DNA of 64,000 nucleotides. Source: Zootoca vivipara. Taxonomy: Eukaryota. Each line of letters starts with the position of its first letter. Position 1 is the first letter of the stretch. Of this stretch, positions 22,801 to 25,800 are shown piece by piece. Location: assembly GCF_963506605.1 (NCBI RefSeq), contig NC_083283.1, positions 59,520,001 to 59,584,000 on the forward strand, written 5' to 3'. The position numbers are program-made.

Positions 22801-25800
22801 GACGGGAGGGTCGGGCAGGCGAGAGGGGGTGGCAGGGCGGGCGAGGGCGAGGCAAGACACGGCCGCAGCCACGACGGCTCCGAGGCGTTGCTGCATATCA
22901 GCATAATATTTCAACCATGGTTCAAGCCCCACCTTAGGAAAAAAATCCTGCATTGCAGGGGGTTGGACTAGATGACCCTTGTGGTCCCTTCCGACTACAA
23001 TTCTATGATTCTATTGATATATTACCATAGCATATGCATCATTCTGCTTTCTTGAATTGTCCTACTCCTAGGCATAGCATCCAACTCCTAGAGGCCTAGG
23101 TGCCCCCCCCCCAATTATTGGTAAATACCGTATTTGAAAGAGTCATCCCCCCATGTTGATGGGCTTTCTATGTGGGGCTTATCTGCCCCCCCCGTATTTT
23201 ATTAAGGATGGAAGAGGGAGGGAAGGAAGGAAGAAATAGAGAGAGAGATAACTCATATTTGTGGGTGTCTCTGGATGACGCTGTGATGCTAGAACTCTGC
23301 AGCAAGAGGACAGGAGGGTCGGGCAGGCGAGAGGGAGTGGAAGGGCGGGCGAGGGCGGGGCAAGGCATGGCCGCAGCCACGACGGCTCCGAGGTGTTGCT
23401 GCATATCAGCATAATATTTCAACCATGGTTCAAGCCCCACCTTAGGAAAAAATCCTGCATTGCAGCGGGTTGGACTAGATGACCCTTGTGGTCCCTTCCG
23501 ACTACAATTCTACGATTCTATTGATATAGTATTACCATACCATATGCATCGTTCTGCTTTCTTGAATTGTCCTACTCCTAGGCATAACAGCCAACACCTA
23601 GAGGCCTAGGTGCCTCTCCCCCCCCCAATTACTGGTAAATACCGTATTTGAAAGAGTCATCCCCCCATGTTGATGGGCTTTCTACCGTGTTTCCCACATT
23701 TTAAGACACCGTCTTATATTTATTTTACCCAAGAAAATAAGCCTATGGCTTATTTTCGGGGGGGTGTCTTTTTAATTTTTTTTTAACTGTAATTACGGCA
23801 GCCAGCGTTGCTGCTGCTGGGTTCCGGAGGCAGCCTGCAGGGTCGGTGCCCAGCTGCGCCGGTGCTGGACACTGGAGAGAGCAGGAGACTGAGCAGCCAC
23901 TGCGGCATCGCGCTGCCAGAGACTCGCAGCCACTGAGGAGCTTGCGGCGCCGGGGCTTGCGGGCGGCTCTCGCCTTTCCGCCCTTTCTCCTGCTCCCGGG
24001 GGAGACGTGGCTTCTATTCCCCATTGCCAAGGAAACAGCCCGGGGGAGAGACGCCAGAGCTGAGGCGCCCCCCGCCCGCGGATCCCACGTGCCGCCGAAA
24101 ACGGCAATGCTTAGGGCCCCCCACTCCTCGCCCGAAGTGGAGTAAGGCCCCCCGAGCGGTCCAGGGCTTGCTTCCGAATGCGCAGGGACAGGACTGCGCT
24201 GTTAAACTCTTTGCAAACTCCTTGCCCAAAAGAAAGCTGTCCTGCAGAGTGCCGGATCGAGGAGCCGGTCTGCAGAGTCAGCGCCCAGCAGCGCGGCGCT
24301 GGATTGAGGAGGCGGTGCTTCGTGCGGAGCTGCTGGGCGCCGACCCGGCAGGCCGCTTCCTCGATCTGGCGGCCTCCCGGGTTGGCGCCCAGCAGCGCCG
24401 CGCGGAGCACCGCCGGTCTGTAGAGTCAGCGCCCAGCAGCACGGCGCTGGATTGAGGAGGCGGTGCTTCGTGCGGAGCTGCTGGGCGCCGACCCGGCAGG
24501 CCGCTTCCTCGATCCGGTGCTCCGCACGGCGCTGCTGGGCGCCCACCCGGGAGGCCGCCGGATCGAGGAAGCGGCCTGCCGGGTCGGCGCCCAGCAGCTC
24601 CGCACGAAGCACCGCCTCCTCAATCCAGCGCCGCGCTGCTGGGCGCTGACTCTGCAGACCGGCTCCTCGATCCGGCACTCTGCAGGACAGCTTTCTTTTG
24701 GGCAAGGAGTTTGCAAAGAGTTTAACAGCGCAGTCCTGTCCCTGCGCATTCGGAAGCAAGCCCTGGACCGCTCGGGGGGCCTTACTCCACTTCGGGCGAG
24801 GAGTGGGGGGCCCTAAGCATTGCCGTTTTCGGCGGCACGTGGGATCCGCGGGCGGGGGGCGCCTCAGCTCTGGCGTCTCTCCCCCGGGCTGTTTCCTTGG
24901 CAATGGGGAATAGAAGCCACGTCTCCCCCGGGAGCAGGAGAAAGGGCGGCAAGGCGAGAGCCGCCTGCAAGCCCCGGCGCCGCAAGCTCCTCAGTGGCTG
25001 CGAGTCTCTGGCAGCGCAATGCCACAGTGGCTGCTCAGTCTCCTCTCTCCCATGCCCAGCGCTGCTGGGAGCCGACCCTGCAGGCATGGCTTATTTTCGG
25101 GGTATGTCTTATATTTTACAAAGGCTTTAAAATCCTGCCATGGCTTATATTATGACTCCGTCTTAAAAAGGGGGAAACACGGTATGTGGGGCTTATCTGC
25201 CCCCCCATATTTTATTAAGGATGGAAGAGGGAGGGAAGGAAGGAAGAAATAGAGAGAGGGATAACTCATATTTGTGGGTGCCTCTGGGTGATGCTGTGAT
25301 GCTGGAACTCTGCATGTACAGGAGCCTTGTAAGCAGCTTTCTCTCTGCTTGATTTACAGCAGGCACGTCCAACAGGTAGATTGTGATCTACCAGTAGATC
25401 ACTGGATGTCTGTGGTAGGTCACTGGCACCCCTAAAAAAAGCTCACCCAAAATTTTCCTCCTCCCTCAAAAAAGTTGAACTATGACCTGAAGCCCTAAAC
25501 AAAAATGGGCCTCCCTCCCTCCTAAAAGAAGCTCAACAAGTTTGACCTAAACCCCCCAAAACAGGGCTTCCCTTCCTTTAAAAAAAACTCAACAGCTTTG
25601 ACCTGAACCCCCCAAAAGGGGGTAGATCACCCCCCGTTTTAAAGTCTGAGTAGATCAGAGTCTCTTGGGAGGTGGCCACCCCTGATTTACAGTATACAGA
25701 TGCAGGAGGAGGGGCAGACTGGAACACCAATGCTTTTTATAAACATCACTGTGTCTGTCAAAGCTACAGCCCCCCCTTTCTTATTCACTTCTTTTTAGCC

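What the first reader, a model, noticed from the sequence alone, without database searches (positions are those of the whole stretch)
23884..25043. Near-perfect ~530-bp-arm GC-rich palindrome with a switchable loop in the KIF13A pre-mRNA
Arms ~23884-24412 and ~24515-25043 are reverse complements. The mirror ORFs are identical for their first ~114 codons, and CpGs are retained. The ~102-nt spacer (24413-24514) is itself a direct copy of the inner left arm (~24265-24366), so it can compete for the right arm and give two mutually exclusive folds. Long inverted repeats with short spacers are generally unstable (cruciforms, fork stalling), and in a transcript they form long dsRNA (ADAR, Dicer and MDA5 substrates). 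Persistence implies very recent origin or arm-to-arm gene conversion (inference).
Basis: partly seen in the sequence, partly recalled or inferred. Interest (0 to 1): 0.7.

Follow-up and report, generated by a model that had tools for sequence, protein, structure and literature searches.

The report
Transposon-borne long palindrome in lizard intron
The near-perfect 530-base inverted repeat is real in the sequence, but it is the GC-rich core of a small cut-and-paste transposon sitting in an intron of a wall lizard's KIF13A gene, with no sign that it does anything for the gene.

Summary
The arms are 23883-24412 and 24515-25044, 530 nt each, with 7 mismatches. The 102-nt spacer is a direct copy of the inner left arm. 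The gene is KIF13A of Podarcis (wall lizard), not human, and the palindrome lies in intron 2 on the sense strand.

A tandem-duplicated paralogue of the insertion site, 22797-23301, is empty. Two more family members lie in the window: a 239-bp short form, and a 1-kb form whose unrelated GC-rich core is also full of inverted repeats.

Five of the 7 arm differences are CpG transitions. All 7 lie outside a 389-nt identical tract (P=0.00065). This points to real mutation plus arm-to-arm conversion, not a fold-back assembly error.

The "switch" fold is 36 kcal/mol less stable than the full hairpin. There is no coding or known RNA family signal. Long reads, other genomic copies, RNA editing and small RNAs could not be checked. 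I read it as an ordinary kind of feature and an unusually clean example.

The parts
23683..23684 (.). Left TA of the target-site duplication
   Evidence: The empty paralogous site has a single TA at 23169-23170. The left flank alignment ends at 23684.
23685..23780 (+). Left terminal domain of the element. It holds the terminal inverted repeat (CCGTGTTTC...) and repeated GTCTTAT/ATAAGAC modules. AT-rich, GC 0.35.
   Evidence: It is shared with the copies at 11900 and 54708. The terminal inverted repeat is 34 nt at 82% (I11). Composition.
23781..23882 (+). Outer left part of the GC-rich core. 23833-23882 is a degenerate mirror of 25045-25085.
   Evidence: I13 (30 nt, 87%); alignment with indels.
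23883..24412 (+). Left arm of the near-perfect palindrome, 530 nt. The segment of about 370 nt up to about 24250 has no other copy in the window. The inner part is built of units of about 50 nt carrying GCTGCTGGGCGCC in alternating orientation.
24413..24514 (+). Spacer. It is a direct copy of 24265-24366 and is itself a quasi-palindrome with an inverted motif pair at 24428(-) and 24477(+).
   Evidence: searches (D1, I2, I16; three-way comparison), and the fold.
24515..25044 (+). Right arm, the reverse complement of the left arm, with 7 mismatches.
25045..25085 (+). Outer right part of the core, a degenerate mirror of 23833-23882.
   Evidence: (I13).
25086..25182 (+). Right terminal domain of the element, with the terminal inverted repeat.
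   Evidence: It is shared with the copies ending at 12932 and 54470.
25183..25184 (.). Right TA of the target-site duplication
   Evidence: The right flank alignment starts at 25183 and matches 23169 onward.
22797..23301 (+). Empty-site paralogue. It is the first copy of a ~508-bp tandem duplication. The second copy (23305-23684 plus 25183-25314) is split by the element.
   Evidence: 94.0% identity over 381 columns and 94.7% over 133 columns.
11900..12932 (+). Second family member, 1033 bp with TA flanks. Its 848-bp core has GC 0.76 and CpG o/e 0.90, and contains 7 of the window's 12 long inverted-repeat pairs.
54470..54708 (-). Third family member, a 239-bp short form with a core of about 45 nt and TA flanks.
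9147..9287 (+). KIF13A exon 2 (approximate limits), the upstream boundary of the host intron.
   Evidence: tblastn of the Podarcis muralis KIF13A protein P0003, residues 19-61.
30407..30472 (+). KIF13A exon 3 (approximate limits), the downstream boundary of the host intron.
   Evidence: tblastn of P0003, residues 54-75.

Best explanation
The palindrome is the non-coding GC- and CpG-rich core of a 1.5-kb non-autonomous cut-and-paste DNA transposon. The element has terminal inverted repeats and a TA target-site duplication, so it is Tc1/mariner-like and MITE-type. It inserted into intron 2 of KIF13A in a Podarcis wall lizard.

Shown here: the element's borders, the TA duplication, the empty paralogous site, the family membership, the lack of coding or known RNA signal, and the location in the intron.

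Inferred: the core already consisted of short units of about 50 nt in alternating orientation, which form short hairpins. During replication or gap repair a strand folded back at one such quasi-palindromic unit (now the spacer) and copied its own upstream sequence. This produced an inverted duplication of about 530-580 nt. I cannot tell whether this happened before or after the insertion. Later the arms collected ordinary mutations, mostly CpG transitions. A conversion event between the arms then erased the differences over the central 389 nt.

When KIF13A is transcribed, the intron carries a nearly perfect hairpin of about 580 bp. It is most likely a by-product that is removed with the intron, not a regulatory device.
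For: Element and insertion:
- The flanks 23408-23684 and 25183-25314 align at 94-95% to one contiguous segment, 22900-23301. They share a single TA there (23169-23170) and have one TA on each side of the insert (tandem duplication confirmed).
- The terminal motif TACCGTGTTTCCCC (up to 2 mismatches) occurs 5 times, against 0.27 expected. All 5 are at the ends of three elements.
- The three copies share left and right terminal domains of about 85-100 nt but differ in the core. All 3 of 3 are flanked by TA.

A tendency of the family:
- 9 of the 12 inverted-repeat pairs of 60 nt or more in the window lie in the cores of the two long copies, 2 here and 7 in 11900-12932.
- All 13 matches to GCTGCTGGGCGCC (up to 2 mismatches; 0.68 expected) lie in these two cores. 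One sits near the left edge of each core. In this element they alternate in orientation, symmetrically about the centre.

Real sequence, not an artefact:
- The sequences beyond the arms are not mirror images of each other. They are the two different ends of the element and the two halves of the duplicated segment.
- The mirror symmetry continues outward at lower identity with indels.
- 5 of the 7 arm differences are CpG-to-TpG or CpG-to-CpA changes (read from the alignment).

Conversion: the longest identical run is 389 nt. Seven randomly placed differences give a run that long in 0.065% of 200,000 trials. 35 of the left arm's 53 CpGs lie in that run and none differs.

Age: the arms are 98.7% identical, while the duplicated host segment into which the element inserted is 94-95% identical.

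Non-coding:
- 0 Pfam families for 6 ORF translations, 4 from this element and 2 from the copy at 11900-12932.
- No protein scored at E <= 0.001 among 1176 candidates for the 172-aa ORF.
- 0 Rfam matches at gathering score.

Hairpin: MFE -1425.5 kcal/mol, with both arms fully paired.
Against: - Only three family members could be examined, all from this one window. No lizard genome could be searched, so the family's copy number and consensus are unknown, as is whether other copies carry this palindrome.
- The cores of the two long copies show no similarity beyond composition. The best local score was 20, against 20.1 +/- 2.5 in 100 dinucleotide shuffles, and 51 of 100 shuffles reached the observed score. 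The common origin of the cores therefore rests on one short shared motif.
- No autonomous partner or transposase was looked for, so the superfamily assignment rests on the TA duplication and the terminal repeats alone.
- The fold-back model rests on a 3-nt microhomology read from the sequence and on 3 variable sites among the three copies of the 106-nt unit. That is too few to order the events.
- The identical 389-nt tract could also come from consensus polishing of reads that map ambiguously to the two arms.
- No read, expression, editing or small-RNA data were available.
Confidence: 0.72

Rival explanations
1. Assembly artefact. The second arm does not exist in the animal. It would come from a fold-back or chimeric long read, or from merging two haplotypes that differ by an inversion of the core.
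For: - Long inverted repeats are a known problem for sequencing and cloning (abstract of PMC4057610 as listed).
- The arm divergence of 1.3% is in the range that two alleles could show. That comparison rests on my own recall of heterozygosity levels, not on a call.
- The perfectly identical 389-nt tract could reflect polishing.
- No reads could be examined.
Against: - The palindrome is embedded. Both flanks are present once and are different sequences that together rebuild an uninterrupted paralogue. A fold-back read would mirror the flanks too.
- Mirror symmetry continues beyond the near-perfect arms at about 80-87% with indels. A fresh artefact would not give that.
- The centre is a 102-nt duplicated unit with 2 private changes, not an abrupt junction.
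- A second family member in the same window has its own, more diverged inverted repeats.
- 5 of 7 differences are CpG transitions. I take that as the signature of germline mutation, not of read error; what read error looks like is from my own knowledge, not a call.
Confidence: 0.08
2. A functional RNA element. This could be a hairpin-RNA or small-RNA precursor, or a structural 'switch' in the KIF13A pre-mRNA, kept by selection, as the first reader leaned towards.
For: - The hairpin is extremely stable, and an alternative pairing exists in the sequence.
- There are sub-threshold resemblances to miRNA precursor models. The best is MIR1437 at 107 bits against a gathering score of 168.
- CpG retention and the identical tract could be read as constraint.
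Against: - It arrived as part of a transposon insertion that is absent from the neighbouring paralogous site.
- No Rfam family reaches its gathering score. All 20 matches are generic GC-rich hairpin look-alikes on both strands.
- The alternative fold is 36 kcal/mol worse.
- The outer and inner ends of the arms are decaying by CpG transitions.
- A sister element has a different core with the same inverted-repeat habit. That points to a mutational tendency, not a selected sequence.
- Nothing here bears on expression.
Confidence: 0.04
3. Captured host DNA. The unique segment of about 370 nt in each arm (about 23883-24250) would be a piece of a host gene or CpG island picked up by the transposon (transduplication), then duplicated in inverted orientation.
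For: - This segment has no other copy in the window and lacks the unit motif found in the rest of the core.
- Its composition is CpG-island-like: GC 0.68 and CpG o/e 0.81-0.86.
- The cores of the two long family members are unrelated, as expected if each captured something different.
Against: - There is no protein-family match and no protein relative for the longest ORF.
- There is no known RNA family.
- No source locus could be searched for, because no lizard genome was available to the tools.
Confidence: 0.12
4. Two copies of the same element nested or joined head to head, as in 'double' elements, instead of an internal fold-back duplication.
For: Two inverted copies of one sequence are what such a nesting would give.
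Against: - Only one left and one right terminal domain are present.
- The terminal motif occurs only at the outer ends, 23683 and 25171-25184, and not near the centre.
- The mirrored part contains none of the AT-rich terminal modules.
Confidence: 0.02

Closest known systems
Tetris (foldback-like element) and its MITE relative DAIBAM in Drosophila virilis (PMC4079207, abstract read)
   Same: A short MITE and much longer non-autonomous elements share the ends of their terminal repeats. The long forms carry internally repeated modules and exist in many rearranged forms. The bulk of the long element is mirror-symmetric.
   Different: Tetris has long terminal repeats built of ~220-bp tandem repeats. 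Here the units alternate in orientation, and Tandem Repeats Finder found no array in 23.7-25.2 kb. The sub-terminal ~70-120 nt are not mirrored. The host is a vertebrate, the flanks are TA, and the core is CpG-island-like.
Tandem-repeat-containing MITEs such as DTC84 of the clam Donax trunculus (PMC3879986, abstract read)
   Same: The terminal sequences act as a 'cassette' around a variable repeated core, so each copy differs. Short palindromes inside the repeats are proposed there as hotspots for length change.
   Different: The DTC84 core is a direct tandem array with a microsatellite and a putative AA duplication. Here the core has undergone inverted duplication into a 530-nt-arm palindrome, and the duplication is TA.
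Palindromes formed from short inverted repeats by snap-back or template switching (review PMC7999016, passages read; ODIRA-type model PMC10766186, search listing only)
   Same: A short inverted repeat or quasi-palindrome lies at the centre of a much larger inverted duplication. Stability depends on arm length, arm identity and spacer length.
   Different: Those cases are chromosome-scale amplifications seen in yeast, cultured cells or disease. This is a 1.2-kb structure fixed inside a transposon. The mechanism is inferred here, not observed.
Large sex-chromosome palindromes kept alike by arm-to-arm gene conversion (recalled knowledge, no call)
   Same: Arm identity is higher than the age of the surrounding sequence suggests, and differences are erased in tracts.
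   Different: Those arms are kilobases to megabases long, carry genes and have long spacers. Here the arms are 530 nt and non-coding. Conversion is suggested only by the clustering of 7 differences.
Inverted SINE pairs (such as inverted Alu pairs) in introns and UTRs as the main endogenous long dsRNA and ADAR substrates (abstracts as listed, for example PMC12695637; otherwise recalled knowledge)
   Same: A transposon-derived inverted repeat inside a transcript folds into long dsRNA.
   Different: Those are two separate insertions of about 300 nt with lower identity (recalled). This is a single element with 98.7% identical 530-nt arms and 68% GC. Editing was not tested, and the host is a reptile.

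Membership tests
TA-targeting non-autonomous TIR transposon (Tc1/mariner-type MITE, 'Stowaway-like') | 2-bp TA target-site duplication | tested here: met
   The empty paralogous site has one TA and the filled site has TA on both sides. 3 of 3 copies in the window are flanked by TA.
TA-targeting non-autonomous TIR transposon (Tc1/mariner-type MITE, 'Stowaway-like') | Terminal inverted repeats | tested here: met
   34 nt at 82% at 23683-23716 / 25151-25184 (I11). The terminal motif is found at both ends of the two long copies and at one end of the short copy within 2 mismatches.
TA-targeting non-autonomous TIR transposon (Tc1/mariner-type MITE, 'Stowaway-like') | Dispersed copies sharing termini | tested here: met
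   3 copies in 64 kb share ~85-100-nt terminal domains, with mean column identity of 72% and 78%. The genome-wide count could not be tested.
TA-targeting non-autonomous TIR transposon (Tc1/mariner-type MITE, 'Stowaway-like') | No coding capacity | tested here: met
   0 Pfam families for 6 ORFs, 4 from this element and 2 from the copy at 11900-12932. No protein relative for the 172-aa ORF.
TA-targeting non-autonomous TIR transposon (Tc1/mariner-type MITE, 'Stowaway-like') | Miniature size (a few hundred bp; the limit is recalled) | tested here: not met
   This copy is 1,500 bp and the copy at 11900 is 1,033 bp. Only the copy at 54470-54708 (239 bp) is miniature. This copy is better called a non-autonomous element of a MITE family.
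TA-targeting non-autonomous TIR transposon (Tc1/mariner-type MITE, 'Stowaway-like') | Cognate autonomous element with a DDE/D transposase sharing the terminal repeats | not tested
   No transposase was searched for in the window, and no lizard genome was available to the tools.
Foldback-type transposon | Long terminal inverted repeats that run from the ends and make up most of the element | tested here: inconclusive
   The mirrored arms cover about 1,160 of 1,500 bp. The mirror symmetry is interrupted: the termini are mirrored for about 29-34 nt, then about 70-120 nt are not, then the core is.
Foldback-type transposon | Arms built of tandem subrepeats | tested here: not met
   Tandem Repeats Finder reports no array within 23683-25184. 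The unit motif alternates in orientation.
Palindrome maintained by arm-to-arm gene conversion | Arms more alike within a genome than orthologous arms between species | not testable with these tools
   No other genome or copy was available.
Palindrome maintained by arm-to-arm gene conversion | Differences absent over tracts (non-random placement) | tested here: met
   A 389-nt identical run among 7 differences, P=0.00065 from 200,000 random placements. An effect of polishing is not excluded.
Known hairpin RNA or miRNA precursor family (Rfam) | Score at or above the family's gathering threshold | tested here: not met
   0 matches at gathering score in the window. The best permissive match is MIR1437 at 107.3 bits against 168.
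Fold-back assembly artefact | Mirror symmetry that includes the flanks or ends a contig, with an abrupt junction | tested here: not met
   The flanks differ from each other and rebuild a contiguous paralogue. The centre is a 102-nt duplicated unit with changes of its own. Reads were not available.

The most novel reading that the evidence does not exclude
Lacertid lizards may carry a family of TA-inserting MITE-like elements whose GC-rich cores repeatedly fold back on themselves and grow into long, CpG-island-like palindromes that arm-to-arm conversion keeps nearly perfect. Transposition would then scatter ready-made hairpins of 0.5 kb or more into introns. Copies such as this one in KIF13A would be strong natural sources of long nuclear dsRNA, either heavily edited or diced into small RNAs, and local hotspots of fork stalling and rearrangement.
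Probability: 0.12. Interest if true: 0.55.

Novelty: new member of a known kind. Interest (0 to 1): 0.25.

Why it matters
As it stands this is a tidy example of how a transposon core can turn into a long palindrome. Unusually, one window holds the filled site, an empty paralogous site, a short family member and a second expanded member. That makes the order of events partly readable.

It would matter more under two conditions. First, genome-wide copies would have to show that this family regularly produces long near-perfect hairpins. Second, the KIF13A intron copy would have to be edited or processed. Vertebrate examples of natural hairpins of 500 bp or more at about 99% identity inside expressed genes are, to my recollection, few. 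Such a hairpin would be a useful natural substrate for studying dsRNA handling and palindrome stability in a reptile.

Tried and rejected
- Coding sequence. There was no Pfam match for 6 ORFs and no protein relative for the 172-aa ORF among 1176 candidates of 94-301 residues. Longer and shorter lengths were not searched. The 'mirror ORFs' are a by-product of the symmetry.
- Known RNA family. Nothing reached gathering score. The permissive scan of 23600-25300 gave 20 sub-threshold matches, all but two of them to miRNA-precursor models, which I set aside as generic GC-rich hairpin look-alikes.
- Other copies of the palindrome in the window. There are none. Only the terminal domains recur.
- Homology between the cores of the two long family members. 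It is no better than in dinucleotide shuffles. I gave that of the 1,305 core bases of this element, the left half plus the spacer, because the rest is its mirror. All 848 bases of the other core were given, in both orientations.
- Nested double insertion. Rejected because there are no internal terminal motifs.
- Human origin. Rejected. There were 0 matches to a recalled Alu motif with up to 3 mismatches. BovB-like and CR1-like ORF fragments were recognised by eye from recall. Exons are 100% identical to Podarcis muralis KIF13A.
- Literature. Searches for squamate MITEs or mariner elements and for Podarcis transposable elements listed nothing that names this family. I read only the listings. 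One search failed on term syntax and was re-sent.
- The bacterial and archaeal genome collection and the phage, plasmid and E. coli collections were not used, because they cannot hold a lizard locus.
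Full report
**What is in the sequence**

The window has no N. The repeat finder reports inverted arms at 23883-24412 and 24515-25044, 530 nt each, 99% complementary, 102 nt apart. A global alignment of the left half against the reverse complement of the right half shows 7 mismatches and no indel in the 530 nt.

- Four mismatches lie in the outer 95 nt: 23903, 23909, 23961, 23977.
- Three lie in the inner 46 nt: 24367, 24383, 24401.
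- None lies in the 389 nt between them.

Outside the arms the mirror symmetry continues at lower identity with indels, to 23833 and 25085 (I13).

Among all inverted repeats of 60 nt or more within 5 kb in the window there are 12 pairs. Two belong to this structure, and the longest unrelated one has 84-nt arms.

The spacer region 24412-24517 is a direct copy of 24264-24369, with 3 differences in 106. It is 98% complementary to 24558-24663, only 40 nt away (D1 and I2).

This follows from the symmetry.

**Whose DNA, and where in the gene**

One exon, searched alone (56696-56869), is 100% identical to proteins that NCBI and UniRef name KIF13A of Podarcis muralis. Other squamates follow at 88-95% among the named entries.

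A tblastn of that lizard protein (P0003) against the window places these exons on the + strand:
- exon 1 at 7772-7825;
- the next exon at about 9147-9287;
- the next at 30407-30472;
- 23 further matches downstream to 63266, several of them at 100% identity.

I searched exon by exon and did not build or search a joined spliced model.

The palindrome therefore lies in the ~21-kb intron 2, on the sense strand. The window is not human. A recalled Alu motif has no match. The translated frames show BovB-like and CR1-like fragments, which I recognised by eye from recall.

**What the palindrome belongs to**

A self-comparison shows that the palindrome's core has no other copy in the window, but the ~100 nt on each side do.
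- 23683-23780 and 25086-25184 match the two ends of a 239-bp element at 54470-54708 (minus strand).
- They also match the two ends of a 1,033-bp element at 11900-12932.

The motif TACCGTGTTTCCCC (up to 2 mismatches) occurs 5 times against 0.27 expected, always at an end of one of these three elements. Alignments show shared terminal domains and unrelated middles. Each element is flanked by TA.

The element here sits in the second copy of a ~508-bp tandem duplication. The first copy (22797-23301) runs uninterrupted through a single TA at 23169-23170. The second copy is split at exactly that TA into 23305-23684 and 25183-25314, with a TA on each side.

This is an empty site and a filled site side by side. 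It defines a 1.5-kb insertion (23685-25182) with terminal inverted repeats (34 nt at 82%, I11) and a TA target-site duplication. That signature is that of Tc1/mariner-mobilised non-autonomous elements (established knowledge). No transposase was looked for.

**The core**

The AT-rich terminal domains (GC 0.35-0.38) enclose a core of 1,305 nt with GC 0.68 and CpG observed/expected 0.81. In 26-64 kb of the window the CpG ratio is 0.20.

The motif GCTGCTGGGCGCC (up to 2 mismatches) occurs 13 times in the window against 0.68 expected. Eleven are in this core and 2 in the core of the element at 11900-12932, with one near the left edge of each core. In this element the motifs alternate in orientation and lie symmetrically about the centre. 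One inverted pair lies inside the spacer (24428 -, 24477 +). The spacer is therefore itself a quasi-palindrome and not a neutral loop (I16; fold).

The sister element's 848-bp core (GC 0.76, CpG o/e 0.90) holds 7 of the window's 12 long inverted-repeat pairs. Apart from the short motif, the two cores are no more alike than dinucleotide shuffles. The score was 20 against 20.1 +/- 2.5, and 51 of 100 shuffles reached the observed score. I compared 734 of the 1,305 core bases here, since the rest is their mirror, with all 848 of the other core.

So two of the three family members have grown GC-rich, inverted-repeat-rich cores of different sequence. This points to a mutational habit of the family and not to a selected sequence.

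**Not coding, not a known RNA**

- Six ORF translations from the two cores match no Pfam family.
- The longest stop-to-stop ORF (172 aa) has no relative at E <= 0.001 among 1176 candidates of similar length.
- Rfam gives nothing at gathering score in the whole window.
- A permissive scan gives only sub-threshold resemblances, nearly all to miRNA-precursor models. The best is MIR1437 at 107 bits against 168.

**Artefact or real?**

A fold-back read or hairpin assembly error would mirror the flanks or end the contig. Here the evidence points the other way.
- The flanks are two different sequences that rebuild a contiguous paralogue.
- The symmetry continues outward at lower identity with indels.
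- The centre is a duplicated unit with two private changes.
- Five of the 7 arm differences are CpG-to-TpG or CpG-to-CpA changes (read), as expected from germline deamination.

I cannot exclude that polishing contributed to the perfect middle tract, and no reads were available. I put an artefact at about 8%.

**Age and conversion**

The arms are 98.7% identical. The duplicated host segment, which must be older than the insertion, is 94-95% identical.

The 7 differences are not spread at random. A 389-nt identical run arises in 0.065% of 200,000 random placements. It contains 35 of the left arm's 53 CpGs, none of them changed. This pattern fits a conversion tract between the arms, or a two-step origin.

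Among the three copies of the 106-nt unit, the spacer copy has 2 private changes, the left-arm copy has 1 and the right-arm copy has none. This slightly favours a history in which the direct duplication of the unit (148-nt period, D1) came before the inverted duplication. Three sites cannot settle it.

Read from the sequence, the spacer-to-right-arm junction is compatible with a strand ending in CGG pairing back on CCG at 24410-24412 and copying leftwards. The alternative is a perfect palindrome whose centre broke and was repaired with a templated 102-nt insertion. Both are inferences.

**Folding**

As RNA, 23833-25085 folds into one hairpin with both arms fully paired and the spacer folded on itself, at -1425.5 kcal/mol. 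Forcing the spacer to pair with the inner right arm gives -1389.6 kcal/mol. In that fold the displaced left inner arm makes local hairpins.

The 'switch' could exist only as a kinetic intermediate.

On DNA stability, a review reports the following (passages read in PMC7999016). Longer arms, higher identity and shorter spacers raise fragility. [quoted passage not shown] A 102-nt spacer is thus on the safer side. However, nested short-spacer repeats here (106-nt arms 40 nt apart; 46-nt arms 12 nt apart) could still nucleate hairpins.

**Consequences for the gene**

The element would be transcribed within KIF13A intron 2 and would form long dsRNA. It is established for mammals that such dsRNA attracts ADAR, and that only a small subset of endogenous dsRNAs is immunogenic (abstract of PMC12695637 as listed). 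Nothing here tests this in a lizard. No expression, editing or small-RNA data could be consulted.

**Comparison with what is known**

The nearest described cases are these.
- Tetris and DAIBAM in Drosophila virilis: a foldback-like element and a MITE that share terminal repeat ends (abstract).
- Tandem-repeat-containing MITEs such as DTC84, whose termini act as a cassette around a variable repeated core (abstract).

This element differs in having units of alternating orientation and not tandem arrays. It also has a GC- and CpG-rich core, TA flanks and a vertebrate host. It works like a foldback element, but I do not file it as one, because the mirror symmetry is interrupted near the ends and the arms are not tandem arrays.

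My literature searches (listings only) showed no named description of this family. No repeat library was available, so it may well be catalogued already.

**Verdict**

This is a real, transposon-borne long inverted repeat and a new member of a known kind. The structural 'switch' and the functional reading are not supported. Recent origin with some arm-to-arm conversion is plausible.

Still unchecked: spanning reads, other genomic copies, orthologous loci, methylation, editing and small RNAs.

Noticed in passing
window 11900-12932: A second expanded member of the same TA-flanked family. Its 848-bp core has GC 0.76 and CpG o/e 0.90, with direct repeats of 32-92 nt and 7 inverted-repeat pairs of 60-84 nt at 78-94% identity. 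It also lies in KIF13A intron 2.
   Followed up: partly
window 22797-23301 and 23305-25314: A ~508-bp tandem duplication at 94-95% identity. Its second copy received the element. Part of it (22946-23014) matches 52957-53027 on the opposite strand, next to CR1-like ORF fragments, so the duplicated segment probably contains a CR1 tail.
   Followed up: partly
window 17750-20250: A 2.5-kb GC-rich block (GC 0.62, CpG o/e 0.66) inside intron 2. A 154-nt piece (17807-17959) recurs at 22597-22742 at 86% identity. It also holds a 31-nt tandem repeat at 19648-19741. Its nature is unknown: it could be an intronic CpG island or a repeat.
   Followed up: no
window 6600-8000: A CpG island (GC 0.625, CpG o/e 0.95) around KIF13A exon 1 (7772-7825). 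It is followed at once by a long trinucleotide run that translates as poly-Asn, poly-Ile or poly-Tyr depending on frame.
   Followed up: no
window 52454-52641; 29253-29402; 6028-6394: Three other hairpin-type inverted repeats: 84-nt arms at 94% with 20 nt between them, 64-nt arms at 86% with 22 nt between, and 65-nt arms at 92% with 237 nt between. They are probably other MITE families. An ORF translation from the first resembles one at about 37935.
   Followed up: no
window 53180-54250 (- strand): ORF fragments resembling the C-terminal parts of BovB/RTE-type and CR1-type retrotransposon proteins. I recognised them by eye from recall and did not run them against a family library.
   Followed up: no
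window ~1020-1390, ~14100-14560, ~35870-36070, ~43850-44260, ~59760-60240: A repeated sequence seen in ORF listings at five places and on both strands, with translations such as ...GLADQKVGGSNPC... and ...KVKGPLTIRSS.DRLWG.... It is most likely a SINE family.
   Followed up: no
window 25500-25617: A 56-nt tandem repeat of 2.1 copies at 82% identity, just downstream of the element.
   Followed up: no
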